A stretch of 64,000 bases of DNA from Naegleria gruberi. Lineage: Eukaryota. Each line of letters begins with the position of its first letter. The stretch's first letter is position 1. Under the pieces are notes generated by a model. It did no database searches. It saw nothing but the letters and a program-made list of their open reading frames with translations, and had not been told where the DNA came from. The translations under genes and the position numbers were made by a program. The stretch lies in assembly GCA_000004985.1 (NCBI GenBank), contig GG738879.1; one strand, given 5' to 3'. Below, piece after piece: positions 543-41,545 of the stretch.

Positions 543-3500
543 TTAATCAACTATGGATTCTATTGGAGGTAAAACACTATCTTCTTCTTGTTTTACCTTT
601 TTAATATTTGTATTGTCATTTGCATAAAGTCTTTCTCTCTTAATTCCACCACTTGTATCTGTCTTGTAAATTAATTGGCTTGGTGATTGAGGAATTGTTT
701 GTTGAGGTGAGGAATGAGAAGGTGAAGGATTATCATAGAAATAGGATGGAGAAAGAGATGGAAATCCTGTCATTGGGGATACTAACATATGAGGTGGTGA
801 AGGACTTGTTGGATTGGTATGATAGGAAGGACTTCTACGGTCAATTCTAGGAGAAGGAGAATTTGAGAAACTATATAATGAAGGACTTGAAGATGACATA
901 AAATTTGGAGAGGATGACATGAGTGAGGAAGATCTCTTTGGATCACTTTCACCTAAAGTAGTATTTGTAGAGGTTGGTTTTGAATAGGATGGAGGTTTTG
1001 AAACATGTTGTAAATAATCACTAGGTTGAAATAGAGAAGTAAACTTTTTAGGGGTAGTGGTGGTATTTGAAATGTTGGAATTGGAGCCAATGCTATTCAT
1101 TGTTGTTGTTGATGATTGAATTGAAGGCATTTGAGATTGTGGATAGGAAGGAACATTTGACTTGTTTGAAGAATATTGATTAGGTGATGAATAAGAGTAA
1201 GGTGGTGATAAATTTGGCGATCGGCCTCCAAGTGGAGATGAATGGTGATGAGCAGGTGGACTTAGACCAGTACCACTAGCAATACTACTTGTTAAAATTT
1301 CTTGACTTGCAGATCTGTGAAGTGAAGCCATATTGTGTAGTGATGATGATTGAGTTGATTTTGGAGGTGGGTTCATCAGAGTATCAGATGCACTTGGATA
1401 ACAATTTGAAAGAGATGAATTATTATTAGCAGTGAGCAGAGAACCATGATGAATATTAGTGTTCATATTGCTATTTCCAATATTTCCAATAAGGTTTTGT
1501 GGAATATTCATCAAGTTATTATTACTGGACATGCTTGGTGGCATGTTACTACCCATCATATTATTTGGAATAGTATTAGGAATATTATTCATCATGTTAG
1601 GAGGCATTCCAGATGACATGTTATTTTGCATATTTGTAATATTGTTTGGAATACCATTTGGCATACCATTCATACCGTTTGATATGTTACTTGACATATT
1701 ACTTGGCATACTATTCATATTGTTTGGCATGTTATTTGGAATAGTATTTGGCATACTGCTCATTATATAATTATTAGGATTTTGATTGTAATTCAACACC
1801 TTATGAGATGCACTTGTTAGAATGTTATCATTTACATTCACTGATGATGGAGGCATCATATTTGGTATGTTTGGTTTCAGTTTTGATGCTGATTGAACAC
1901 TATTACTTGACGATACTCTAGACATTGGTTGTTTAGTTTCTTGATAAGAACTGACATTAGTGCTGGTATTGCCTGTACTTGATTGAATATTTTGGGGTGT
2001 TGTTGGCTTTGATTCTTGATTGAGGTTAATAACTGTCGATGAAGATTTGCTTTGCTTTGCTTTCTTTTCCGTTGTTTGTGATGCAACAATTGCACCATCT
2101 GATTCACTCAGTAAAGGATGGTTATGCGTTCCAAGACAAAGTAATAATCTTCTGTTATCAGCCTTATCAAGTGGTACATAGAAATGTAACTTGAAAGGAC
2201 ACTTTCCACTCTTTGTCAATGAATTATTGTTATGTTTCTGACAAGTGTGAAATCTCAATCTACATGGTCTAACAATACACGATTCACTGTCATCATCCTT
2301 GTGAGGACAATAATAAACACCCTGACATGTTCTTTCATAATGCATTACTTTACAATTCAAATAACTACAATGAACTTTCTTTTGAGTGGATGGAGTGCCA
2401 AATGAATAAGCAATCTTATCATAAAAACTATTCTTATCTGTCCAATTCTCAACATTGTAAATGTATAAAATTCCATGTTTTGGATATTCTACAGGTTCGT
2501 TTGGTGTTACACTTGTATCTGCTCGAATATTTCTAGTAATTTTAATTCCACCTTTTTGCCCTGCTTCTTGAGAAGCATCTCCTCCGGTTTCCTCTTCATT
2601 TGGCTGAGAATCCACTGCAGTTGCAGTTGGTTGTTGTTGGCTATTAGTAGGACTGGTTTCAGGTTTTACAAGTGTTGGTTGAACTATGGTTGTTTGTTGT
2701 ATTGTCCATTTTGGTTGGGTATTATTTTGGGCTTTTACCATTGTGGGCGTTGTAAACGAAATGGGTGTTGCTGAAGTGGAATTTTGCACTAGGACTCTGG
2801 AACCAACACTTGGATTGGATGATTGTTGCATGGCAGTTGTAGTTGAAGGTAGAGGAGTAGAATTTGGTGCATGTTTCATAGCATTGCCATTGTCATTATT
2901 GGAAAGTCGAAAGAAACTATTCACAGAGAATATATTATCTCCATCAACAATACGAGTTGGTGTTGGAGTGGAAGAATTTTGTAATTGGTGTTGAAGTGGT
3001 GTTTGATTCTGTTGAATGATCAATGCATCAGACGAAACTAAATTATTAGATGAATTATTTTGCACGTGATGATGAGATGTATCAATGGATTGATTACCCA
3101 TCATGACTTGGTAATTACTACCATTAAGATTATTCATATTATTATTGTTGCTATTGGTATTATTAAAATTGGAAGAAAGTTGATTATAGGATTGATTAGA
3201 TGACATTGGATAATTATTGTTCATCATGTTAGTATTGATTTGTTGCTGCATTAAACTATTGAACATGTTTTGTTGTTGATTATTATATAAACCCTGATGA
3301 TGATTATTCGAATTCCCTGTATTAAACCCAACAGAGTTATTGCCAAGTTGTTGCTGTTGTTGTGGAATATGATAACCTGACCCTCCGTGTTGTTGTTGTG
3401 GTTGAGCAACAGTTCTAAACTGTTGAGGAGGTGGTTGATGATGTTGTTGTACTACATTCCCATTACTGTTGCTAAATGTGTGTTGTTGCTGAAAATTCAT

Positions 3501-3788
3501 TGGCCATGAACTTGACACGACTTGCTGCTGATGATGGTGTAGGGAGGAAGGAGTTGTTGGACGTGATGATGTTGTTGCATAGAGATTATTAGAGGTAACA
3601 GAATTGTTATTGGTAGTGGAGACTGTCATCATCATGTTGGTATTATTATTATTATGGACTCCTACTGCAGTAATTTGATTAGTAATTGGTAAATTAGAGG
3701 ATTGTGGTGATGGTGAATTTGTTATTATTTGTTGTTGATGTTGATAGAGATTATGACCAGTATGTTGCTGGTTCTGCATATTTATCAA
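543..3788 (-). CDS. Q/N/S-rich nuclear protein with a divergent WRKY/GCM1-fold zinc-finger domain; putative transcription factor
   Basis: 1081-aa ORF with poly-Q, poly-N and NMPNN-type repeats. The central segment W-TDKNSFYDK...C-SYLN-C-KVMHYER...(Cys-rich insert)...RRLLLCLGTHNHPL matches the WRKY pattern W..K(9-10)C-x4-C-x3-HxER ... HNH, with the WRKYGQK heptad replaced. Confidence 0.5.
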   Translation of the reverse strand: MINMQNQQHTGHNLYQHQQQIITNSPSPQSSNLPITNQITAVGVHNNNNTNMMMTVSTTNNNSVTSNNLYATTSSRPTTPSSLHHHQQQVVSSSWPMNFQQQHTFSNSNGNVVQQHHQPPPQQFRTVAQPQQQHGGSGYHIPQQQQQLGNNSVGFNTGNSNNHHQGLYNNQQQNMFNSLMQQQINTNMMNNNYPMSSNQSYNQLSSNFNNTNSNNNNMNNLNGSNYQVMMGNQSIDTSHHHVQNNSSNNLVSSDALIIQQNQTPLQHQLQNSSTPTPTRIVDGDNIFSVNSFFRLSNNDNGNAMKHAPNSTPLPSTTTAMQQSSNPSVGSRVLVQNSTSATPISFTTPTMVKAQNNTQPKWTIQQTTIVQPTLVKPETSPTNSQQQPTATAVDSQPNEEETGGDASQEAGQKGGIKITRNIRADTSVTPNEPVEYPKHGILYIYNVENWTDKNSFYDKIAYSFGTPSTQKKVHCSYLNCKVMHYERTCQGVYYCPHKDDDSESCIVRPCRLRFHTCQKHNNNSLTKSGKCPFKLHFYVPLDKADNRRLLLCLGTHNHPLLSESDGAIVASQTTEKKAKQSKSSSTVINLNQESKPTTPQNIQSSTGNTSTNVSSYQETKQPMSRVSSSNSVQSASKLKPNIPNMMPPSSVNVNDNILTSASHKVLNYNQNPNNYIMSSMPNTIPNNMPNNMNSMPSNMSSNISNGMNGMPNGIPNNITNMQNNMSSGMPPNMMNNIPNTIPNNMMGSNMPPSMSSNNNLMNIPQNLIGNIGNSNMNTNIHHGSLLTANNNSSLSNCYPSASDTLMNPPPKSTQSSSLHNMASLHRSASQEILTSSIASGTGLSPPAHHHSSPLGGRSPNLSPPYSYSSPNQYSSNKSNVPSYPQSQMPSIQSSTTTMNSIGSNSNISNTTTTPKKFTSLFQPSDYLQHVSKPPSYSKPTSTNTTLGESDPKRSSSLMSSSPNFMSSSSPSLYSFSNSPSPRIDRRSPSYHTNPTSPSPPHMLVSPMTGFPSLSPSYFYDNPSPSHSSPQQTIPQSPSQLIYKTDTSGGIKRERLYANDNTNIKKVKQEEDSVLPPIESIVD

Positions 3789-5751: not shown

Positions 5752-6294
5752 ATGAGTCAACAACAAACTAGTGCTGAATCAACAACCCTCGTCGAAAAAG
5801 TAACCAAGTTCATCGTATCACCAGTATCTCTTGCTGTGATTTCTGTTGCTGGTGTTGCTGGAGCATATTTATTATATAAGAAATTTTCGCCAAAGAAAAA
5901 GACAAGTTCGATAACTGGTGATGATTATAGTGATACTTCTTCTGATAGCGATTCTGATAGTGATTCTGATGAAGAAGAAGTCGAAATCAAGGATTTCACT
6001 CTTGATGAATTACACACATTTGATGGTGTTATCAATCCAAAAGTTTATGTTAGTGTTTTAGGTAGTGTTTTTGATGTTACCGGAAGTGGATTTTATGGTC
6101 CTGGAGAAACCTACTCTCTTTATGCTGGACATGATGCTTCATTTGCCTTGGCAACTAATGACGTCACTGCCACCAACTTGGATAAATTGGATCTTTCTGA
6201 ATTGAAGGCAAACGAATTGGATCATTTACAATCCATGGTTGAACACTTTAGAATGAAGTATTTACATGTTGGTAACTTGCTGGAAATGCAATAA
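5752..6294 (+). CDS. Membrane-associated progesterone receptor component / Dap1-like cytochrome b5-type heme-steroid-binding protein (PGRMC family)
   Basis: N-terminal TM helix, acidic SDSDSD linker, then FTLDELHTFDG...VFDVTGSGFYGPGETYSLYAGHDASFALATN...HFRMKYLHVG, which tracks the PGRMC1/Dap1 cyt-b5-like domain closely. Confidence 0.85.
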   Translation: MSQQQTSAESTTLVEKVTKFIVSPVSLAVISVAGVAGAYLLYKKFSPKKKTSSITGDDYSDTSSDSDSDSDSDEEEVEIKDFTLDELHTFDGVINPKVYVSVLGSVFDVTGSGFYGPGETYSLYAGHDASFALATNDVTATNLDKLDLSELKANELDHLQSMVEHFRMKYLHVGNLLEMQ

Positions 6295-20679: not shown

Positions 20680-22422
20680 ATGGTAAGTTTTCTCTTGTAT
20701 TATGTGAGTCACTAATCAAGCCTTAAAAATTAGTCTGCTGTTGCACAACAATCAAAGACGCAATCCATCACACATGAAGAGTCTTTGACTCTAATGAGAA
20801 ATTTGATGAGAACTGCAATATCTTCTGTTTGCTATTTGAGAAATTTATTTCCTGAGGATTGTTTTCAAGACAAGTCTCTGAGTGGAATCCAAATCAAGTC
20901 TCTTCAGCCTTCAAATGAGGAGGCAAGAACACTTATCGATTGGTTAGAGAAGGGTGTGTTTGAAGCCTTGAAGAAGAAATATCTGAGAACTATAATCTTT
21001 GGAGTCTGTTCTGATCCAAGTAGAGAAATTGATTCAATGCTTGAGAGCTATGAATGTAAGTATTACACAAACTGGTTTGTTCAATTATCTGCTCTATCAG
21101 TCAAAGTAACCTATCCGGATAAGGAAGAAGGCCAGTTGAACATCTCAAGAGCAGCTGATTCGAACAAGACTAATAAGAAGATTGGAATTAAAGGAACTCA
21201 AACCAAACAAGAAATTACTCAATCAATGGTTATGATGCTTAGAACCCTCATCACTCTTGCTCAGACACTTCAACCAATTCCAGAAACTAGATATATTACC
21301 ATGAAACTACTCTACTATGAAGATGTTACTCCTAGAGATTATGAGCCATCTTTCTTTAGAGCTTTGAGAGAGGATGAATCCAGAAAATTCAATCAAGATT
21401 TTGTCAAACTGAAGATTGGGCAAGTTCAAACTCAATATCACTCGTTGAATATTCGTGTAAGAACCGCATCTGAATCATTTGAAGATGAAGATGGTAAATC
21501 AGTCACCTCAGAGATGTTATCCTCCTGCCCTATAGACAAGAATAATTCACATCCAACCTCCTCTCAATGGGCTGTCAATGTACCAGAGAATAAGCTCGAA
21601 ACAAAGAAGGAATATGATAGCGATTCGACTCAGCTTTCCCAACAGGATGACAACACTAAGCAATCAAGCAGTTGTGAAGAGAAATTATTCCTTGCAGATT
21701 TGGAAAAGATTGGTTGGTTCAATTTCCAACTCAAATCTGTCAGTAAACTATTATCCAACAAGTATCCATCTGTCACGGGCGAAATAGCTAAAGAATTGGT
21801 AATTGCCAAGAGAACCAAACTGGTCAAAGATATGGAAGATCATGAGAAGACCTATTACAAAGCACTTGCATATGTTTTAGAAGAGGATCATATTACAGCA
21901 AGTTCTCTATCCAGTGAATTAGATATCAGTTCCTACTCAGCAACCAAGTTAATCTCCCAAATGGAAAAGGAGGGTCTCCTTAAAGCTGCCTCAACAAAGA
22001 GAAAAGGGAAGAAGGTAATGCACAACAATAAGAGACTTGAAGAAGCAAAAGAGTTCATTGAATTTGAACAGTATTTGAAGCAACCTAAGACTGAATCCAC
22101 CTCCTCTCCATCCAAATCACCAGAAGCTAAAAAGAAGCAAGAATTTGATTATTCGGACTCTGATTCAGAAATTTCAAATCATGAAGAGAGTGATATCAAA
22201 CCAACTCCCAAAAAGGCTGTTCATTCCTCACCAACCGTCACTAGTCCACCAAAGCAACCTGAATCAGTTGATAAAAGAGGTGTAAAGAGAAAGACTATTT
22301 CTCAATTTGAAGTCAGTCACAGTCAAGATGAAATAACTGCCAATGATAGAGAGAATGAAGAAAATCCATCATCTTCTAAGGTGGATTTGGATTCAATCAA
22401 CTACAGTTACTCAATTTTGTGA
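20680..22422 (+). CDS. HORMA-domain protein (Hop1/HORMAD-like meiotic chromosome-axis protein), two exons: join(20680..20682,20734..22422)
   Basis: EESLTLMRNLMRTAISSVCYLRNLFPEDCF...ALKKKYLRTIIFGVCSDPSREIDSMLESYECKYY aligns with the HORMAD1 N-terminus (SLVLVKRLLAVSVSCITYLRGIFPE...ALQKKYLRMVVLAVYTNPED). The ATG is followed at once by a 51-nt GTAAGT...ACTAAT...TTAG intron; the second exon, which starts upstream of track ORF 20785, then continues in frame. Confidence 0.7.
20683..20733 (+). other. Spliceosomal intron (51 nt) directly after the start codon of the HORMA gene
   Basis: ATG|GTAAGT...AG. The downstream frame (SAVAQQSKTQSITHEESLTLMRN...) is open and extends the homology to HORMAD N-termini. 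Confidence 0.55.
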
Positions 22423-30742: not shown

Positions 30743-30824
30743 ATTGAATAAAACAATCACTCAATTTTAGATATTTCCTTAATATTATTGAATGAAAACA
30801 AAAAAAGGAAAGATTAAAAAGGTG

Positions 30825-30895
30825 TAGGAAGACAGGGAATCGAACCCTGATCTTAGGAACCACAATCCCATGTTCTACCACTGAACTATCTCCCT
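30825..30895 (-). tRNA. tRNA-His (anticodon GUG)
   Basis: The reverse complement AGGGAGATAGTTCAGTGGTAGAACATGGGATTGTGGTTCCTAAGATCAGGGTTCGATTCCCTGTCTTCCT-A folds as a cloverleaf: 7-bp acceptor, GTTC/GAAC D-stem, TGGGA/TCCTA anticodon stem, loop TTGTGGT (anticodon GTG), T-stem CAGGG/CCCTG with a TTCGATT loop. The discriminator is A73 and no G-1 is encoded. Confidence 0.85.
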
Positions 30896-31651: not shown

Positions 31652-34600
31652 ATGCAAAATGATGATAGAATTCATGATACCGAAGATGAAGGAAATAGAG
31701 ATATTATGGAGGAAGATAACATTCAAAGGTTTTTCAAATGGGCTAAGAATGTTGGTGTGGATGTTAGAAGAGGTTGTATAGCTATTGGAAATAGTGAATT
31801 GCCAATATCTTTGAGAATTGCTTTCAGAAGAGCATTGGCTACTGTTGGATTGGAAAAACCAAACTCTACATTGGACAAATACAAACTTAAAGCAGATATT
31901 AATTTTGAATATTTCAAAATTATGTTTATCGAGAATAATAACGTTCCACAGTACAATACTCCTCATTTCGAATTATCAAGAAAGAAAACTGAAGAAGAGT
32001 GAGTATTGAAATTAATTGTAATGTTTTTAACATAATTTAGTATCATTAAGGAGGTACAAAGACAATTTAAAGTTATCTTCAAAAATTCCAATTTTGATTT
32101 TATGAATGAGTTAAAAACAATGACAACTGAGAAGATTGATAAGGAACCTGAATATGTTTTTAATATGAAGGAAGCATCAGATAAAAAGTCAACAATAGTA
32201 GATCAAAAGAAAGTTTGCCTCTGTACAAAATTAAGAGTATGCTATTACTATGAAGAAGGAGGAGTCACTCCAGAGGATGAGAGTAGATCTCCCAATTTAA
32301 TGAGAAGTAACGATGATAACGTGCGAAGCAATTCTGAGCCATCACCAGTACATGGTGTCGAGTTGCATTTTGATAGATTTGTAGATGGTGCAGTTGTATA
32401 TGGACCTTGGGGAGACCACCAGAGAGCATTGCTTCAAGCTTTCTTCTTCCCTCCTCTCTATGAGAATGCAAAGTACTATAGAAAAACAGCAGGACGACAA
32501 AGAAAATCTGAAAAATTTGATGTTGAGTTCTATTTTAATGAAAAGACAACTTGGGTATTCCCTTTTATTGCAACACCAAAAACTTTAAGAGAAAAAAAAG
32601 AAAATAAGGGCGACGAACAAATTTTGACAATGATTTTTGACAAGAATTCCTTCCTTCACTGGAGTGGTGATATGTATGCTTCTTTAGCAACTAATGAAAC
32701 AATTACCAATATTGATTTCAATTTCCCAGGAATGAGTCTAATTACAAGCAATACGCAAGCCACCTTTGGTGAATCAGAGATAGGAAAAGGCCACTTCATT
32801 ATGAGAAACTCTGCTGAATGGAATGGCAGAAAGGACTGGACTTTCAATTTTGAAGCAAACAAGTCTACAGTTTATTACACGGCAGGTAAGTTATCAATAT
32901 ATTTTCTAATTCTAAAATCATTTATAGAACACATTGGATTCATTATGGATTTAATTAGGGATTGGAGAAATTATCCAAACCAAAAACAAGCAACTTTACT
33001 CGATTTTATTCCCTCTGTATATACATATAATTTTAAACTTTATAACTCAATGCTTAAGATGCATACTAACGACTTGAACATAGTGGAGTTTCCTAATGAC
33101 AGCTCCAAGAATCACTTTTTCTGTATTGATTACCCTCTAATGAGTATCAGTTTTACTGCTCCTGGAGAAGTTTTTTCCCCACCTTCTGTAGAATATTCAT
33201 TCAGTGTAGAGGTTAAGGGTGATGCACAAGTTGACCCTGGAGTACATATGGAATACCCAAAAGATCATCCTGTTCACGAAATGCAAATGGAACCAGGAAA
33301 AAAGTTTTTATGGGGCGAAAGAGCTCATGTACATGGAACCTATACAGTCCATGACAAAATCAATGTCGAAAATGTGGATTCCTGCATAATTAATGTTGAT
33401 TTATTCAATGTAAATTTAATGGTGAACGGATATCACCTCAATTATTTAATTACTATGTGGTTTGACCATTTCACTGCTGAAAGATTTTGGATGTCAGAAT
33501 CTGAATACATTGCAAATGGATATAAGAATGACAAGTCAAAGCAAATATCCAATTTACAATCCACTGATTTGTCGTCCATTCCTTATCCATCTAACCCAAC
33601 CGAATACTTTGTTACCATTAATATCAAACGAGGTATAGTACATTTGCCTCACTCTCTTTATTCGAGAGAAGAATGTACACAACTTATGGGTGAAGAATTT
33701 ACTATGGATATTAGATACGTACCTTCCAGTATTGATTTGTGTTTCAATCTTGGTCAACTTATGGCTGAAATACCAATTAACCCAGATGAAAAAGTAAGGC
33801 CTTCAAAGAAGTTTATTGGTTGTGAAGGAATCAAATTTTTAGCACAATTACCAATTGGACCAAATCCTGATGGGTTACTTTGGAGAAGAAAAATTCACTT
33901 TGATATTGGAGCAATAACTGGTGAAATCACTCCAAGTCAAATTGGTAATATTGTAAATATTGGTCTCAATTTTGTCTATCAGTGGAAATTGGCCTACTTC
34001 CCTAAACCTGACATTACTTTTAAAAAAAGTGATTATTCCAGAAGACAATATTCTTCTGAAGAGTTTGATGAATACTTGATTTGGGATGTTAGAGTAACCT
34101 TTGTTTCTATTTCTGCTGTCATTTCAATGACCAACGGTATGGTCAATATCGATTTAGACAAGGGAATTGATATTAATTTTGATTCACTCAATAATGGATC
34201 ATCCAATTCTAGGCTCAATGTATTGGTACCCTCCATACATGCCAGAATAATGAATGCAAGAGAAACAGGAATGAAAGTAGATGGTGATTGGGTTCAAATT
34301 GGAGAACTATTGTCTGGTCTTAAAGTTGGTATGGAAAAGAAAACTCACGACCTTAAAGAGCACTATTTCAGACAACAAAGGTTCATTCAAAATATGAACG
34401 GAGATTCGTTTGGATTGAATTTTAGTGCTGATAAACAAATGGAAACATCTCTTAACAAACGAGAGATGGAGACAAGTGCTTCAACAAGCAAGAAAAGGTC
34501 CAAAAAAAAGAATCCTTCAAAGAGATCTGTTGCTAAGACTACAACTGAAATTAGTGAAACAGATATTAGCGAAACAGACACAGATGCTGAATTTTTCGAT

Positions 34601-37600
34601 ATAGATGATGACGAATTGGAGCTGGAAGAGGAAGAAGAGAAGGTTCAAAAGGTCAGAAAAGTGTTTAATGGTCTAACTTTTCATGATACCGAACTGGGTA
34701 AAACAATTAGTGTAGACTATATTGATAGTATAATTTCAGAAGATGGAAGCCAATTTATAGAAAAGGATGTATTGGACGATAGAGCACAATGGAATCTTAT
34801 TTCGAAATCATCACCAAGTTTATCTACATATTCCAGTTATTTGAAAAATTATTACTATGAACAAGAAAGAGAAAGTCTTATGCCTTTAACATATAATGCT
34901 AAGCAATTTCTTACAGATAGATATCCTCACCATAGAATGGGAATGTACTCTCCTTTCCCTGAATATCACTTAAGAAGAAATAAGAATACTGAAGATTCAA
35001 ATGAGTTACTACCAATAGTATCAAAATTCAGCAAACTTGACATGAAAGATTTTAGAGGACAATTCTATTCATTTTCTTCTGGAAAGGACCGTGAGAATAT
35101 TGAGAGAATTTTGCAAATCGAAAGTAACTTTACCTCCCAAGAAAAAATTGATCAACAACATATCAACATTGAATTTTTAAAGAATATTGATATTAGCTTT
35201 TCACCAAATGTAATCTCTCTAGTACACCAATTAATCAAATATATAATACTTCCAGATTCAAACCTTCATGCTACAGCTGATCATATCGAAAAGTCAAAGA
35301 AAGTATTCCATCAGGATGTCCCAGAGGAATTATTAGAAGAGAAGAAAACTATTCCAAAATGGGATTTAAAGAAAATTATCTTTTCTGGTGGTGTTAAATG
35401 TGTTAATGTTAACGTTTTACAATCACTCTCTGTACCTAATATTATACCTGAGTCACCTTTACAAGGAACAGTTTCTGCATATTCTATCAAACTTTTTGCT
35501 ACTGATTTTGTAGCTTCTGGATCTGTAACTTTGAGAAAAGTGGAAGAGGAAAAGAAAGTAAGCTCTGAACTATTTTCTATTGAAGGTTTTGGAAAATGTC
35601 TAGAGGTTGGAGGTATTTCTCAGTGCTTAGATAGTAAAACATACCATTACAAAGGTATTGATCCTTCTGAGTTACCACTTTACTTCTTACAAAGGGTAAA
35701 TCTAATACCAGACGCACCAATAGTTGCAGCAATTCTTGTAGAGGACGTTCATTTCCAAGGTAAAAATAATATCAAGGAGGAAAACTCTCAGGGAAGATTT
35801 ACCTGTACAGTAGGAAAGCAAGGTTCTCTAGGATCAGGTGTTTCTGTACTCTTTACTCATGATATAATTGTAATTTCATATTCACTTGTAGAAGTGTGGA
35901 GAAAAGTTATCACAGATATGGTATTGAATGTTAGAAACTATTTGAGGTTACGACACGTCTATGATTTGCTACTACTTAGTCAAGTTTCAAAGAAAGCTGT
36001 ATCCAATACATCAGAAAACCTCTATGGAGTCTTGGAAAAAAAGCAAGCTTTGAAACATTTAAGAGCTTCTCTCTACTCTTTAACTTTTGCTGACTGTAGA
36101 AGTATTCAAAAGTTTATGCATTCTCATATAGGAATGGAAGTTGATTCAAAGGTAGAAATGAGAGCAATAAGAAATGAATACTCTGAATTGATAGAAGACG
36201 AAGACCATGCCCCTCAAATTCATACAAGCAAAACCTCTGTGAGATTGAGAACTGATATCTCTTTCCACTTGGAACGACTTGACCTTTCAGTTCATTCTGT
36301 TGATTTTAAAACAAAAGTTTACACAAAGAGTATTGCAAAGTTTAATGATATTTTAATGAGAGGAAAAGTAGAACATAGTTTGAATCCACTTTTCGAAACT
36401 GAGTACAAGAAATTTGAATCAGAAAATGCACAAAAGATAAGAGATATTTCTCTTATTTTATCAGTGAATTGTAGAGCCTTTAGTATTGATATTCACTCTC
36501 AAACTCTCATCCTTTTAACTTCAGCGCTTGGAGTATTCTTAATTGTTAAAAACAAACCTTTCATTAAAAAGTTGAGAGAAAAAGAAAAAAAGAACAAAAA
36601 CAAAAATCCTCAACAAAACCACGGAGAAATTAAGGAGATAACACACGATGTTTCTGCATCAACCCATGAACCAGAGGGTGAAAAAGAAATACCAGTGTAC
36701 CAAGAAAAAGTAGTCCTAAAACTGAATGTATTTACAAATGTTAATGTACAAAAAGCAACCGCTAGAGCATGGATGGACAAGAATAGTTTTGCAGAACTCA
36801 GTATTGATAAGTTTTCTCTACTCTTCAATCAACCTAAAAGCTCAGAAGAGCACATGCTAGCCATCAATAATGAGGAAAACAAGTCAGAGAAGAAGAGTAA
36901 TCTTAAAATGGTACATAGTAGTAATATTTCCATTAACAAAATTCTATTCCAGTTCAATTATACAACTCCTGAAAAAACAAACGAGAGAACAAAAGAGTTT
37001 ATTTCTCTCTTTGATGTTACTGTGAATGATATTAGACTTAATGAATTTTTATTCAAAGAAAAGGACTTGAATGTGCATGCCTATTTTGCATTTGATAAGC
37101 TTTTAATTAATCTTCCATTTGCTGATGTTTGGTCTGCATCTTCAGTACAATTTAGGCTGTTTGTGAAAACATGGTATGAAGCTATCAAAAGAAAGCCTAA
37201 TTTACCAAGCTTTGACATTTCAAAAGATTCTTCTCAACCAAAACAAGACCAAGAGCAACCCAAATCACCTATTAATTTCAATATTCCTGCAATTAATATT
37301 GTTCTTGATTTGAATGATATTTCTGCATACTTCAAGTTGGTAGATTCTTTCCAAATGAGATATAGTCTCACGAAACTAACAGCTCACTTCAAGCAAAATT
37401 CAAAACTTGACAATAACTTTATGGTACACTTGTTCCCGCATTCGTTTACTTTGAAATCAAAGAATGATGAAGAATTTCCAAACTCCAACAAGTGGGAAGG
37501 TCCAAGAAGCACAACACTTGGTTCGAATGAATTCAGAAAGATTTTCATTCTTCCTGAAGTTATTGTTTCTGGAAGTTTAGAAAATAAGGACAATAATGGT

Positions 37601-40600
37601 ACTACACAGAGAATACTTTCCACTTTAATAGCTATTGATTACTTTGAAAATGTGGTTACAAGTGATTTGTTAAATCATGTTATTGTCATTCAATCCGCTG
37701 TTACAAAAGAGATTAACAAGATCATTGAAAGCTTGAATAAGGGTGTTGAAGATTTAGAAAAAATCAAAAACGAATTACCAAAAGCTAAAAAGAATGTCAG
37801 ATCTCTCAATCTTTTCTTTGATGTAAAGCTTTTGTTTGAAGGAATTAGAATCACAGCTCTTGGACCATCTACAGCTCTGGTTGTTGACTCTGGATCAGTT
37901 AATGTTACAGCTTCCAACATTGAACATGTACGAGTCAAGATGTCACTCAAAGGTCTAAATATTAATATGGTAGACACCCACAACATCAAATGGGCAAGTA
38001 CAAGAAAGTACAACAATAGATATTCTGAAACAAGTGAGTGTTACCAGTGGGCCCAATTCCAATCAAACCTTCAAGTTCAAAACTTCCTGGATACTAAATT
38101 ATCTACAACAGACAAACAATCCACCAAGAATTTCACTCTCGATATTTCAAATACCCATCTATACCTTAGACCTGGATGTATAGAGCAAGCACTATTTTTA
38201 TTTAAAGATTACAAGCAATCAGTCCAAACTGTGTTTGAAAAGTTAAAAGAGGCTAGACAAAAGAATAGATCTGAAGCTTTAACTTCCCTCATCAAGACTG
38301 GAGAAGAATATTATTCATTATATTCTCATCAAATCAAAGAAAAAGTTGCTTCAGATGCTAGTACATTTATTAATTCAGGAGTGGTAAGAATTATGAATAC
38401 CACCCTATCTATGCCATTCGGAGATAATCCATACTTTGGATTCCTCACAAATGAGGGTCCTAATTTCAAACCTACATGCTGTTTACAAGTAATTATTCCA
38501 GCAGTTGGTCTCTCAACAATGTCAGAATCAGAAGATGATGTTAGTGCTACACTAGATACATTGATTTCAACAGGAAAAGACAGTGTTTCCAGTCAAAGAG
38601 TTGCCACTTGTAAGGTGAAGTCTATCAATATTTATCTCGATGAAAAACCCCTAAAGAAATCTAAATATTCCTTTAGTATGCCAACACTTCATGACTTTGA
38701 TCAAGCAAAAACAAAAGGAAAGATTGAGAAAATAATGATGAGCTTGAAGCTAAGAGTCACAACCAACGAAATCAATGGTTCTGGTGTTATTCATGTACCT
38801 GGTCCTGATTTGAATATTTCACCAGTTATAGTTAGAAGAGCTCTTGAACTTGGATATGATTGGTTTAATCCAAAACGAAAAATTTTCAATTCATATGTTG
38901 AATCTCCTAAGACCCAACCACAAAAACAAGACCAAGGTGTAATTACGCCAACGAAAGTAAGAGAACTCACAAAAAGAAAAATTTATTTCCTCATTACTGC
39001 CAACATTCAACCTGGTGTATTTAATTTAGTTCACAATATGACACCAAATACACTCGTTAGACGTAAAATTACAGACGAAACAGCTGTTGCAGTAGAAGGA
39101 AAATTGCCATCAGTTACAGTTACAGCCTTACACAAAAATCCAGGTACGAACACAAACCGATCTACAACACATATTCAAACAGGCATTCATTGGGATGGTG
39201 TTAAACTTCTTCCAAAATCATTATTCTTTGTATTGGAGGCAGTTCATGAGTTTAAACTTTGGTCAAAGGAAGAGCAAAAAAGAAGACAAAATTCTGCAAC
39301 CTACAAGTCAAAAGATCAAAATACTACCGAAATTGAGGATACCAAGGAGGTATTCAAACCTGTTGCATGGATGAGAATGCTTAAATCCGTTCTCCTTGTA
39401 CAAAGAATTTACAGAGGGTTTAGAGCAAGACAACTCGTTAAAAAACTCAGATCCGACAAGAACTTGAGAAGTACTTATCTTAAAAAAACAACAAAGAAGG
39501 AAATCAAAAAGAAAGAAAATGCTTCTCTCCAATCTGATTCCTTCAGTTTGCAATGTAGAATCAATCCTTTTAGAGTTGAACTTTCTTGCTTCCCTCTTGC
39601 AGAAACGGTTACTTGCTTTGAATTCACATCTCCATTCGATATTATTTTGAGTAGAACATTGAGAACTGTACAAACGGGTAATACCAAGGGTACTGCCATT
39701 TACCTTAACGTTTGCCTTTCTTGCCCTATTGCCTTGATAAGATGCTACCATCCTCTATCTCCTACACCATTTGTTATTTTGACAGTAGCAGGAATTATTG
39801 GAAACTTGGGCAGTGGATTTGGAAATTATCTTAGATCTGATGACACTCCGGTATATTCAGGAACTCTTCACGTAAAAAAGGTTTCAGTAGAGGTTAGTCT
39901 ACCACAAATGAACCACTTCTTTATTATGTACACAATTTGGATGGATAAATATGAAGAAGCCAGGAAGTCTCTCAAGATTGTAAGAGGAGATATCAAAACA
40001 ACACCTAAAACTCAATTAGTTGTTCTGACGAACGAAGAGAAAGAAGAGAAAGATCAAAAGAGAAAGAAAATTATTATGGAAGAAATATCCCTTGAATCTA
40101 CCTCATCTAAATTTGGTCAATTATTAATCTCCTCATTCGAAATTGTTAGTGATATGGGTCCAACTCTTGGTAAGCAGAAATTGTATGCTGAAGAAATTTC
40201 CTTGTTCTGCAAAGATAAGGGACGTATAGTTAATGAAATTGAAAGAGAACCATTACATATTGGTGGATACTTAGGAAAATTTGAGGGAACATTTGTTGGA
40301 AGACTTCAAGGTAATATATCGATGAATGGTATTGTAGTTGGGCTAAATAGAACATTCAAGAAAGGAGGTTCATCTCCTACGTATAAGGGATCTAGTGAAG
40401 TGTTTATTACAGCTTTACCAACTCTAATAGATTTGGAGCTCAACTCTGCCAAGATACTCAACATCTCACTCAACACATTATCCATTACATTCTGCGATAT
40501 ATTTGACTCTACAGATGGTAGACAATACCATGTGGAAACATCTGTAAACTCATCTGGAGCAACAGTTCGTCTTTCTAAAATATCTGCATCTGCTTTCATA

Positions 40601-41545
40601 TACGTATTCTATAAGATCAAAGAGTTAGCCACTGAAAGAAAGAAAGCTGCATTAGATACTCTCCAAGGATCTGTTAATTTTTATAATACAGAGGATGCCT
40701 CTGAAAAAGAAACAGAAGAAGAAAAATCATTCGAAATCAAATCTCTAAAAATTCAATCTCCAACGAAACAATTTTTATCACTCATTCCAATTGGTGATAT
40801 AGTTTTTAAGGGTGTAAATCTCAAAGTTTACCTTTATGAAAAGTTTACAGTTGAAAAAGATCAATTCGTTCCAGCAGGAGATTGGTTAGAGTTTGGAATG
40901 GATGACTACCAACTAAAGTTCAAACGTAAAGGACTTATGGAGGATAAATCTGTAGAAAGGTCACTGACATTGTTTTTAGCCAAAGTAGCTCTGGATAGAA
41001 TGACTACTCCAAACAAGCGATCATTTATTTTGGAGGTCCCTGGAGCTCACTTAACAATGAACTCATTACAAACAAGATCTATTCCAGATGTAATTAATTA
41101 TACATTCAAAACCAAGTTCCCTAAGGCCATTACAGTCACCACCAATTTGAATGAATATACATTCTTACAAGGTTTGATGAAGCTCTACAAATCAGAAGTT
41201 ACAAACGAATTGGAGGAACATAAGAAATCTGTACAACAACAATCATCATCTGTAATTTCCCTCACTTCTCAAAAACAAACAACAACAGATACTCAAATAT
41301 CCATATTTGGAATTCCAAAGAGAAAATTCGAAGGTACAATTCAACTAAATCCTAAGCTAAATGTTTTAGGAGATTTAACTCCTCAAGTTCAAACAGTTTT
41401 GTCATGGCTTGGAATTTCTGAAAGTATTATACCAAGAGCAGCTCATGAAGGAGTATCTGACTCTCTTGAGTCAATATTTATCATTTGTTATAGAGCTTCT
41501 GAATTGATGGATAATTTATTTGTTGAATCAACTTATGAAAAATAA
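31652..41545 (+). CDS. Giant protein (about 3283 aa) of unknown function with an IQ calmodulin-binding motif, two exons: join(31652..31998,32041..41545)
   Basis: ORF 31556..32002 ends at GA|GTGAGT. A 42-nt intron (GTGAGT...AATTAAT...TTTAG) joins it in frame to ORF 32102..41545 with no intervening stop. The first ATG of the upstream exon is at 31652. IQ motif LVQRIYRGFRARQLVKKLR at about residue 2440. Mixed beta-rich repeats, K/E-rich linkers, and no TM helices or nucleotide-binding motifs that I could recognise. Confidence 0.55.
31999..32040 (+). other. Spliceosomal intron (42 nt) joining ORF 31556..32002 to the giant ORF
   Basis: GTGAGT donor, AATTAAT internal motif, TTTAG acceptor. The frame continues open for 60 nt into the track ORF start at 32102. 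Confidence 0.5.

What the first reader, a model, noticed from the sequence alone, without database searches (positions are those of the whole stretch)
543..3788. Divergent WRKY-like zinc finger embedded in a 1081-aa Q/N-rich protein
WRKY/GCM1-fold DNA-binding domains are rare outside plants. The central C-x4-C...HYER...(insert)...GTHNHPL module here lacks the WRKYGQK heptad (it reads W-TDKNSFYDK) and carries a Cys-rich insert of about 40 aa between the beta-strands. It would be a non-plant WRKY-type transcription factor with prion-like Q/N tracts.
Basis: partly seen in the sequence, partly recalled or inferred. Interest (0 to 1): 0.55.

Follow-up and report, generated by a model that had tools for sequence, protein, structure and literature searches.

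The report
GCM/WRKY-type two-zinc DNA-binding protein, Naegleria
A 1078-residue, glutamine/asparagine-rich protein of the amoeba Naegleria gruberi carries one small basic domain, so far unannotated, whose predicted fold is that of the WRKY (plant) and GCM (animal) zinc DNA-binding domains, so it is most likely a transcription factor of a new family in that superfamily.

Summary
The ORF is real. Window 543-3788, minus strand, has 1081 codons. From its first ATG it is identical to N. gruberi XP_002675296.1, annotated as hypothetical. The Cys/His module is real and is the only conserved part (residues 413-560).

No Pfam WRKY, FAR1, GCM or FLYWCH model hits it or any of about 50 relatives, even at E <= 10. 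By sequence it belongs to none of those families.

Eight ligand positions are conserved from Heterolobosea to Euglena, enough for two zinc sites: C488, C494, C504, C516, H519, C530, H555, H557. The 41-residue insert lies between the two core cysteines, as in GCM.

The "C-x4-C" (C474/C479) is not conserved. The WRKYGQK-equivalent strand is YSFGTPSTQKK, not W-TDKNSFYDK.

Verdict: a new, mainly discoban family of the WRKY-GCM1 superfamily with GCM-like architecture, probably a sequence-specific transcription factor. Zinc and DNA binding are inferred, not shown.

The parts
543..3788 (-). Whole ORF of 1081 codons, stop codon included. The real CDS runs from the ATG at 3779 and gives 1078 aa. It is a single exon and equals N. 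gruberi XP_002675296.1 / NAEGRDRAFT_80403.
2553..3779 (-). N-terminal low-complexity region, residues 4-412. Q+N is 31.5% and there is no Cys. Residues ~83-282 hold at least 30 Q/N per 80 aa (maximum 42). Inferred to be an activation or self-association region.
   Evidence: poorly conserved against N. fowleri and Willaertia
2907..2933 (-). Short conserved motif IFSVNSFFR (residues 286-294). It reads LFSVDRFFR in N. fowleri and LFSVKEFFR in P0028.
2109..2552 (-). The conserved globular domain, residues 413-560. It is basic (pI 9.0, 21 K+R against 13 D+E). It is a predicted two-zinc WRKY-GCM1-fold DNA-binding domain.
2325..2411 (-). Residues 460-488, AYSFGTPSTQKKVHCSYLNCKVMHYERTC. This is the beta1-beta2 hairpin of the core, the position taken by WRKYGQK...YYRC in WRKY, and it ends at the first core ligand, C488. 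G464 and T468 are invariant and K470 is nearly invariant.
   Evidence: hhalign registers
2202..2324 (-). The 41-residue insert between the two core cysteines, residues 489-529. It carries conserved C494, C504, C516 and H519 (H519 is Cys in P0024). It is predicted to form a small beta-rich second zinc site. The same loop is an insertion hot spot in relatives.
2118..2201 (-). Residues 530-557: C530, then beta3 (KLHFYVP), beta4 (RRLLLCL), then H555-N-H557. The C-x24-H-x-H spacing is WRKY-like. This stretch aligns with WRKY GCPVRKHVER...EGKHNHD.
546..2108 (-). C-terminal low-complexity region, residues 561-1081. S+T+P is 40.5% and N 13.6%. It contains a 45-bp tandem repeat at 1658-1757.
984..1022 (-). 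Short conserved motif SDYLQHVSKPPSY (residues 923-935). It is shared with N. fowleri, Willaertia magna and P0026.
558..644 (-). C-terminal tail. It holds a basic cluster, KRERL...KKVK (1050-1066), which looks like a bipartite NLS (inferred). It also holds the terminal LPPIE motif (1073-1077). LP[PS]I[S]-type motifs lie near the C-terminus in 12 core-family proteins.

Best explanation
The gene most likely encodes a sequence-specific transcription factor. Its only folded part, residues 413-560, is a previously unannotated family of the WRKY-GCM1 zinc-finger superfamily.

Proposed mechanism:
2. Inferred: eight conserved ligands bind two structural Zn2+ ions. Site 1 (C488, C530, H555, H557) is the canonical C...C...HxH site and clamps beta2, beta3 and beta4. 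Site 2 (C494, C504, C516, H519) organises the insert. GCM has the same layout, with a zinc-binding module between its two core cysteines.
3. Inferred from the solved GCM-DNA and WRKY-DNA complexes: the beta1-beta2 hairpin (PSTQKKVHC...KVMHYERTC) enters the major groove edge-on and reads a short site. The basic insert adds backbone contacts.
4. Inferred: the Q/N-rich N-terminal and S/P/N-rich C-terminal disordered regions recruit the transcription machinery or drive self-association. The C-terminal KRER...KKVK cluster directs nuclear import. The terminal LPPI(E/S) motif docks a conserved partner.
For: Fold.
- AF2 model 1 has pLDDT 80.5 and model 2 has pLDDT 85.0 and pTM 0.76.

Ligands.
- C488, C494, C504, C516, C530, H555 and H557 are invariant in 16 sequences from Heterolobosea to Euglena.
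- H519 changes only to Cys, in P0024.
- The C530-x24-HxH spacing matches the WRKY core.

Profile-profile comparison.
- Against WRKY: P = 0.0025 and 0.00055. Against GCM: P = 0.0039 and 0.0027, in the expected register.
- 0/60 column-shuffled nulls reach the observed score in either test.
- GCM against WRKY gives only P = 0.02-0.07.

Selection and chemistry.
- The domain is about 80% identical between N. gruberi and N. fowleri or Willaertia, against 39% over the whole protein.
- The domain is basic, pI 9.0.

Architecture. A single DNA-binding domain with long low-complexity flanks and an NLS-like cluster is typical of eukaryotic transcription factors; GCM proteins also have a DBD plus transactivation domains and an NLS (PMC2172107).
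Against: - No sequence profile of any known family detects the domain.
- Foldseek against PDB finds nothing significant. The best hit is a NAC domain at E 0.5.
- The structures are predictions from shallow alignments of 7 and 22 sequences.
- I could not inspect coordinates, so the clustering of the eight ligands into two tetrahedral sites is unverified. An alternative partition, {C488, C494, H555, H557} plus {C504, C516, H519, C530}, is not excluded.
- There is no experimental evidence for zinc binding, DNA binding, nuclear localisation or any target sequence.
Confidence: 0.7

Rival explanations
1. It is a true member (orthologue or sister) of the animal GCM family. GCM-type domains would then predate Metazoa, and this protein would bind DNA as GCM does.
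For: - The architecture is the same: a metal-ligand insert between the two core cysteines, eight ligands, and a C-x5-C (TCQGVYYC against SCLGVVVC).
- hhalign with the broad profile aligns 94 columns at P = 0.0027.
Against: - Pfam GCM (PF03615) gives no hit at E <= 10 for 16 members.
- hhalign probability is only 1-11%.
- The family scores at least as well against WRKY.
- The insert ligand pattern (C-x9-C-x11-C-x2-H) is not the pattern of the GCM insert, which Babu et al. describe as a Zn-ribbon module with four conserved cysteines.
- The GCM-specific loop after the second cysteine appears absent: beta3 starts 3 residues after C530.
- All named GCM hits are metazoan. Babu et al. 2006 report the family only in animals.
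Confidence: 0.1
2. [quoted passage not shown] It would have been recruited as a host factor in Discoba and would resemble GCM only through a convergent insert.
For: - The insert lies between the conserved cysteines, the hallmark of that family, and transcription factors have repeatedly arisen from its transposases (PMC1702500).
- The distant relatives are multi-copy in repeat-rich fungal genomes (Phlyctochytrium, Rhizophagus, Cetraspora) and carry variable, larger inserts.
- A retroelement Pol gene lies near one copy.
Against: - No transposase, SWIM, MULE or FAR1 Pfam domain occurs in any of 53 relatives or in the C-terminal 493 aa of the chytrid protein.
- The conserved Trp in strand 4 that is typical of that family is absent (RRLLLCLG).
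- Among representatives clustered at 50% identity, only one N. gruberi protein was hit, which suggests a single copy. The domain is under strong conservation.
Confidence: 0.2
3. The zinc module is not a DNA reader. It would mediate protein-protein or RNA interactions, and the protein would be a scaffold or condensate component rather than a transcription factor.
For: - Function is inferred from fold alone.
- The protein is about 86% low-complexity sequence.
- Conserved short linear motifs suggest partner binding.
- From general knowledge, some superfamily members such as FLYWCH also mediate protein interactions.
Against: - All the closest structural matches are DNA-binding domains, and three of the top four were solved with DNA or are DNA-binding domains of transcription factors.
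- The domain is basic.
- The most conserved surface-type residues lie in the beta1-beta2 hairpin, which is the DNA-reading element in WRKY and GCM (PMC1702500).
Confidence: 0.12
4. The resemblance is an artefact. A Cys/His-rich beta-rich domain would match GCM and WRKY by chance or through AlphaFold bias, and the domain would have an unrelated fold.
For: - Foldseek finds nothing significant.
- No sequence-profile hits.
- The multiple alignments are shallow.
Against: - Two models built from different alignments both rank GCM first of 48,164 chains.
- The ligand order and the C-x24-HxH spacing agree independently with the superfamily.
- hhalign scores exceed 60/60 shuffled nulls against both GCM and WRKY.
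Confidence: 0.05

Closest known systems
GCM (glial cells missing) domain, Pfam PF03615, PDB 1ODH
   Same: - The domain is about 150 residues, with a large beta-sheet subdomain and a small one.
- A metal-ligand-bearing insert lies between the two core cysteines.
- Eight conserved Cys/His are enough for two Zn.
- A C-x5-C follows beta2 and the domain ends in G-x-H-x-H-P.
- The host protein is a DNA-binding domain plus low-complexity regions of transactivation type.
   Different: - There is no sequence-profile membership: Pfam gives no hit and hhalign probability is at most 11%.
- The insert ligand pattern is CCCH with different spacing.
- The GCM loop after the second core Cys is missing.
- The family occurs in Discoba and some fungi rather than animals.
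- The DNA target is unknown.
Plant-type WRKY domain, Pfam PF03106 (for example AtWRKY1 6J4E, WRKY4 1WJ2)
   Same: - The C...C-x24-H-x-H ligand logic is shared.
- The C-terminal half aligns at P = 0.0005-0.0025: KCPFKLHFYVP...LGTHNHPLL on GCPVRKHVER...EGKHNHDLP.
   Different: - There is no WRKYGQK; beta1 reads PSTQKKV, preceded by YSFG.
- The Cys dyad is split by a 41-residue insert with a zinc site.
- There is a ~50-residue N-terminal extension.
- Pfam WRKY gives no hit.
- There is no reason to expect W-box (TTGAC) specificity.
Insert-containing WRKY-GCM1 family (MULE transposase DBDs, FAR1/FHY3, yeast Rcs1/Aft2, Candida Rbf1; Babu et al. 2006)
   Same: - The insert lies between the two conserved cysteines.
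- Relatives are multi-copy in fungal genomes.
- These are eukaryote-specific, lineage-restricted transcription factors.
   Different: - The conserved Trp in strand 4 is absent.
- No transposase or SWIM partner was detected.
- The insert here carries four conserved metal ligands rather than being merely basic.

Membership tests
Classical WRKY (PF03106) | Significant match to the Pfam WRKY profile | tested here: not met
   No hit at E <= 10 for the whole protein, the isolated domain or 16 family members.
Classical WRKY (PF03106) | WRKYGQK (or a close variant) heptad in the first strand | tested here: not met
Strand 1 reads T468-QKKVHC and is preceded by AYSFGTPS.
Classical WRKY (PF03106) | Contiguous C-x4-7-C-x22-23-H-x-H/C zinc site | tested here: not met
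   The core cysteines are separated by 41 residues (C488...C530). Only the C-x24-H-x-H half is WRKY-like.
Classical WRKY (PF03106) | Four-stranded antiparallel sheet fold | tested here: met
   [not shown]
GCM (PF03615) | Significant match to the Pfam GCM profile or a GCM alignment | tested here: not met
   Pfam gives no hit. hhalign against a 24-sequence GCM profile gives P = 0.054, 0.0039 and 0.0027, with probability 1-11%. That is above the shuffled null but below family-level significance.
GCM (PF03615) | Two-subdomain fold with a zinc-binding module inserted between the two core cysteines | tested here: met
   [not shown]
GCM (PF03615) | Two structural Zn2+ ions bound by eight conserved Cys/His | tested here: inconclusive
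   Eight ligand positions are conserved in 16 sequences, seven of them invariant, with one His-to-Cys swap.
GCM (PF03615) | Restricted to animals (Babu et al. 2006) | tested here: not met
   Members come from Naegleria, Willaertia, Acrasis, Pharyngomonas and Euglena, and distantly from chytrid and glomeromycete fungi. All named true GCM hits are metazoan.
GCM (PF03615) | Binds 5'-ATGCGGGT-3'-type sites | not testable with these tools
   This needs EMSA, SELEX or PBM.
WRKY-GCM1 superfamily (Babu et al. 2006, PMC1702500) | Four-strand core stabilised by a C...C...H-x-H metal site, with the first Cys at the end of strand 2, the second before strand 3 and HxH after strand 4 | tested here: met
   [not shown]
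Insert-containing WRKY-GCM1 / MULE-FAR1 type (PF03101) | Insert of 20-70 residues between the conserved cysteines | tested here: met
   The insert is 41 residues here and about 180 residues in the fungal relatives.
Insert-containing WRKY-GCM1 / MULE-FAR1 type (PF03101) | Conserved Trp in strand 4; association with a MULE transposase or SWIM; Pfam FAR1 hit | tested here: not met
   Strand 4 is RRLLLCLG. None of 53 relatives has a Pfam domain, and neither does the chytrid C-terminal region.
Prion-like Q/N-rich domain | At least 30 Q/N in 80 consecutive residues (compositional criterion, from general knowledge) | tested here: met
   The maximum is 42/80, and 118 windows starting at residues 83-202 pass.
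Prion-like Q/N-rich domain | Self-propagating aggregation | not testable with these tools
   This needs in vivo or in vitro aggregation assays.

The most novel reading that the evidence does not exclude
This family is the closest non-animal relative of the GCM domain. The two-zinc, insert-bearing GCM architecture would then not be an animal invention. It would either have existed early in eukaryote evolution, surviving in Discoba, early-diverging fungi and Metazoa, or have moved between lineages on mobile elements. The family would also link WRKY and GCM in sequence space.
Probability: 0.15. Interest if true: 0.7.

Novelty: new variant of a known kind. Interest (0 to 1): 0.5.

Why it matters
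**Few transcription factors are known in Discoba.** Naegleria's recognised repertoire is dominated by C6 fingers (PMC3537659). The regulators of its rapid amoeba-to-flagellate programme are unknown (PMC12183034).

**This is a defined candidate.** The family is conserved, appears to be single-copy in N. gruberi and occurs across Heterolobosea, including the pathogen N. fowleri. It offers a concrete DNA-binding regulator to test.

**It bears on the origin of GCM.** The family is invisible to Pfam, yet it scores better against both WRKY and GCM than they score against each other. It also shows a GCM-like zinc-bearing insert outside animals. Babu et al. 2006 proposed that a zinc module entered an insert-containing ancestor in animals, and this finding bears directly on that proposal.

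**It fills an annotation gap.** The roughly 50 relatives now gathered would suffice to seed a new domain model.

Tried and rejected
- **Pfam** on the whole protein, the domain and 36 relatives gave nothing relevant. The only marginal hits were MNNL, CBM_14 and zf-SAP30, at E from 0.025 (zf-SAP30, one member) to >= 0.6, which I treat as noise.
- **phmmer of the domain against PDB sequences** found nothing.
- **The afdb50 fold library** was unavailable, so I could not look for annotated AlphaFold-DB neighbours.
- **The GCM structure paper** (PMC154474) is not held. The exact GCM zinc ligands are therefore cited only through Babu et al. and the review PMC2172107.
- **Transposase origin.** The C-terminal 493 aa of the chytrid relative has no Pfam hit at E <= 10. 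Its locus shows only a neighbouring Pol_BBD gene. This is inconclusive and I dropped it.
- **Paralogue in the window.** tblastn finds none.
- **Literature.** Searches for the gene identifiers, and for Naegleria with WRKY or WRKY-GCM1, found no prior description.
- **Neighbouring genes** (RRM protein, HORMA protein, kinase, tRNA-His) give no functional clue.
Full report
**1. The observation**

The window is nuclear DNA of Naegleria gruberi NEG-M. Several of its ORFs are exact matches to N. gruberi RefSeq proteins.

The ORF at 543..3788 on the minus strand has 1081 codons. Its bacterial-code TTG start is an artefact of the ORF tool. From the first ATG (codon 4, window 3779) the 1078-aa product is identical to XP_002675296.1 / NAEGRDRAFT_80403, 'hypothetical protein', so the gene is a single exon. 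An open frame of this length at 34% G+C has a chance probability of about 2e-35.

Nine of the 10 cysteines fall within residues 413-560 (p = 1e-7). The protein is the most Q/N-rich long ORF in the window, at 22% against 7-14% for the others. Residues 83-282 hold up to 42 Q/N per 80 residues.

**2. Sequence-level identity**

Pfam finds nothing in the whole protein or the isolated domain, even at E <= 10. phmmer against PDB sequences also finds nothing.

A word-seeded search of 5.8 billion proteins found six relatives. An exhaustive HMM search of 1.84 billion cluster representatives found only 34, of which 15 had E < 1e-30. A broader profile found 53. None of these carries any precomputed Pfam domain. 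None of 36 scanned directly hits WRKY, FAR1, GCM, FLYWCH or MULE.

Named members:
- N. fowleri (959 aa, the orthologue);
- Willaertia magna;
- Acrasis kona;
- Pharyngomonas kirbyi, with two paralogues;
- more distantly, Euglena gracilis;
- more distantly still, multi-copy proteins of the chytrid Phlyctochytrium arcticum and of the Glomeromycota (Rhizophagus, Cetraspora, Scutellospora).

Only one N. gruberi protein was recovered, and the window holds no paralogue. Among N. gruberi, N. fowleri and Willaertia, the only strongly conserved block is residues 410-562. N. gruberi and N. fowleri are 39% identical over the whole protein but about 79% identical over the domain.

**3. Anatomy of the domain**

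In a 16-sequence alignment that spans Heterolobosea and the Euglena-type members, the invariant residues are F455, G464 and T468 plus C488, G490, C494, C504, C516, C530, H555 and H557. H519 is replaced only once, by Cys in P0024, which is the kind of swap expected at a metal ligand. That makes exactly eight ligand positions, enough for two zinc ions.

C479 varies within the core family and C474 is lost in the Euglena-type members.

The conserved signature is [YF]SFGxP[ST]TQK ... MHYERTCQGVYYC ... C ... R.R...C..H ... KC..KLHFYVP.D..RR ... G.HNH. The domain is basic, with pI 9.0 and net charge +8.

**4. Fold**

AF2 model 1 used a 7-sequence alignment and reached pLDDT 80.5 and pTM 0.73. Model 2 used 22 sequences and reached pLDDT 85.0 and pTM 0.76, with the insert region at pLDDT 80-91.

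The strands in model 2, in ORF numbering, are:
- two N-terminal strands;
- beta1, 468-474 (TQKKVHC);
- beta2, 479-488 (ending at C488);
- a short strand, 491-493;
- small beta elements inside the insert;
- beta3, 533-539 (KLHFYVP);
- beta4, 546-552 (RRLLLCL), followed by H555-N-H557.

| Chain | Model 1 | Model 2 |
|---|---|---|

A better model therefore raised the superfamily hits (GCM, WRKY1, WRKY33), and the superfamily then filled ranks 1-4. Foldseek against PDB found nothing significant; its weak top hit, a NAC domain, has a related sheet.

**5. Calibrated profile-profile tests**

I verified a GCM reference sequence against 1odh_A. I then built a 24-sequence GCM profile from 120 metazoan PF03615 proteins. 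I built a 5-sequence WRKY profile from sequences printed from PDB.

| Comparison | P | Score or coverage |
|---|---|---|
| Core family vs GCM | 0.054 | - |
| Extended family vs GCM | 0.0039 | score 23.9 |
| Broad profile vs GCM | 0.0027 | 94 columns aligned |
| Extended family vs WRKY | 0.0025 | score 21.8 |
| Broad profile vs WRKY | 0.00055 | probability 30% |
| GCM vs WRKY (accepted relatives) | 0.02-0.07 | - |

- The shuffled null for the extended family against GCM had mean score 13.4, SD 2.7 and maximum 21.1. None of 60 shuffles reached 23.9.
- None of 60 shuffles reached the observed score against WRKY either.
- The WRKY alignment places C530 on the second WRKY cysteine and HNH on HNH.

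The new family thus lies between WRKY and GCM in sequence space. The similarity is real but weak, in the correct register, and below family-level significance.

**6. Interpretation**

Babu et al. 2006 define the WRKY-GCM1 superfamily. [quoted passage not shown] They suggest it derived from an 'insert-containing' family (PMC1702500).

The Naegleria domain has that logic. The first core Cys, C488, ends beta2. A 41-residue insert carries four conserved ligands. The second core Cys, C530, sits immediately before beta3. The domain then has C-x24-H-x-H, compared with x22-23 in WRKY and x26 in GCM.

I therefore assign site 1 as {C488, C530, H555, H557} and site 2 as {C494, C504, C516, H519}. The alternative partition, which uses the C488-x5-C494 dyad for site 1, cannot be excluded without coordinates.

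By analogy with the GCM-DNA and WRKY-DNA complexes, the beta1-beta2 hairpin with invariant T468 and near-invariant K470 is the likely major-groove reader. The basic insert is a likely backbone clamp. These are inferences.

Several features outside the domain fit a transcription factor:
- the Q/N-rich N-terminal region;
- the S/P/N-rich C-terminal region;
- the basic cluster KRER...KKVK;
- the conserved motifs IFSVNSFFR and SDYLQHVSKPPSY;
- the near-terminal LP[PS]I[S] motif, present in 12 family members.

GCM proteins likewise combine the DNA-binding domain with transactivation domains and an NLS (PMC2172107).

**7. Membership**

- It is not a WRKY-family member: no profile hit, no WRKYGQK, and a split dyad.
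- It is not a GCM-family member by sequence: no Pfam hit, hhalign probability at most 11%, a different insert ligand pattern, and a non-animal distribution.
- It does meet the fold and ligand definition of the WRKY-GCM1 superfamily.
- The architecture it works most like is GCM.

**8. Novelty and limits**

I found no paper that mentions the gene or a WRKY/GCM-type domain in Naegleria or Heterolobosea. No Pfam model covers the family.

I rate it a new variant (a new family) of a known kind. It is of moderate interest because it shows a GCM-like two-zinc architecture outside animals and provides a candidate regulator in a lineage with few known transcription factors.

Limits:
- the structures are predictions and their coordinates could not be inspected;
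- AFDB was unavailable;
- zinc binding, DNA binding and the 'prion-like' behaviour are all untested.

Noticed in passing
Loci and proteins outside the window: P0031/P0034-36 (Phlyctochytrium arcticum), P0033 (Cetraspora), P0045 and P0201-P0208 (Rhizophagus spp.); L004:6001-9696: These fungal relatives of the domain are multi-copy. They keep the C-x5-C ... C.VKF.K ... G.H.HPPPP register but carry an extra Cys-rich insert of about 140 aa in the same loop. No transposase domain was detected. A Pol_BBD (retroelement) gene lies about 5 kb upstream of one copy (L004:1-886). They may be linked to mobile elements.
   Followed up: partly
P0022 (1074 aa, environmental), residues ~265-325: This core-family member has a further insertion of about 60 residues directly after the C-x5-C. 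The loop between the two core cysteines is therefore an insertion hot spot across the family.
   Followed up: no
window 558-644, 984-1022 and 2907-2933 (minus strand): Short linear motifs are conserved outside the domain among heterolobosean orthologues: IFSVNSFFR, SDYLQHVSKPPSY, a basic KRER...KKVK cluster, and an LP[PS]I[S] motif near the C-terminus. The last is found in 12 family proteins. Their partners are unknown.
   Followed up: partly
window 1658-1757: A 45-bp tandem repeat (2.2 copies, 81% match) lies inside the CDS. It encodes the MPNNM/NSMPSNM-type repeats of the C-terminal low-complexity region and is likely to vary in length between strains.
   Followed up: no
window 32102-41545 (+): An uninterrupted 3147-aa ORF has no Pfam family at E <= 1e-5.
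   Followed up: no
window 5752-6294 (+): This 180-aa ORF is transcribed divergently, about 2 kb from the start of the finding's gene. By eye it reads like a cytochrome b5 / MAPR-type heme- or steroid-binding domain (FYGPGETYSLYAGHDASFALA) after a TM segment and a D/S-rich acidic tract. It gave no Pfam hit at E <= 1e-5.
   Followed up: no
window 20785-22422 (+): This is a HORMA-domain protein (E 4e-59). Residues 352-406 give a sub-threshold match to the FtsK gamma domain (26 bits against a cut-off of 30.6).
   Followed up: no
window 30824-30895 (-): A single tRNA-His (GTG) gene, the only tRNA in the window.
   Followed up: no
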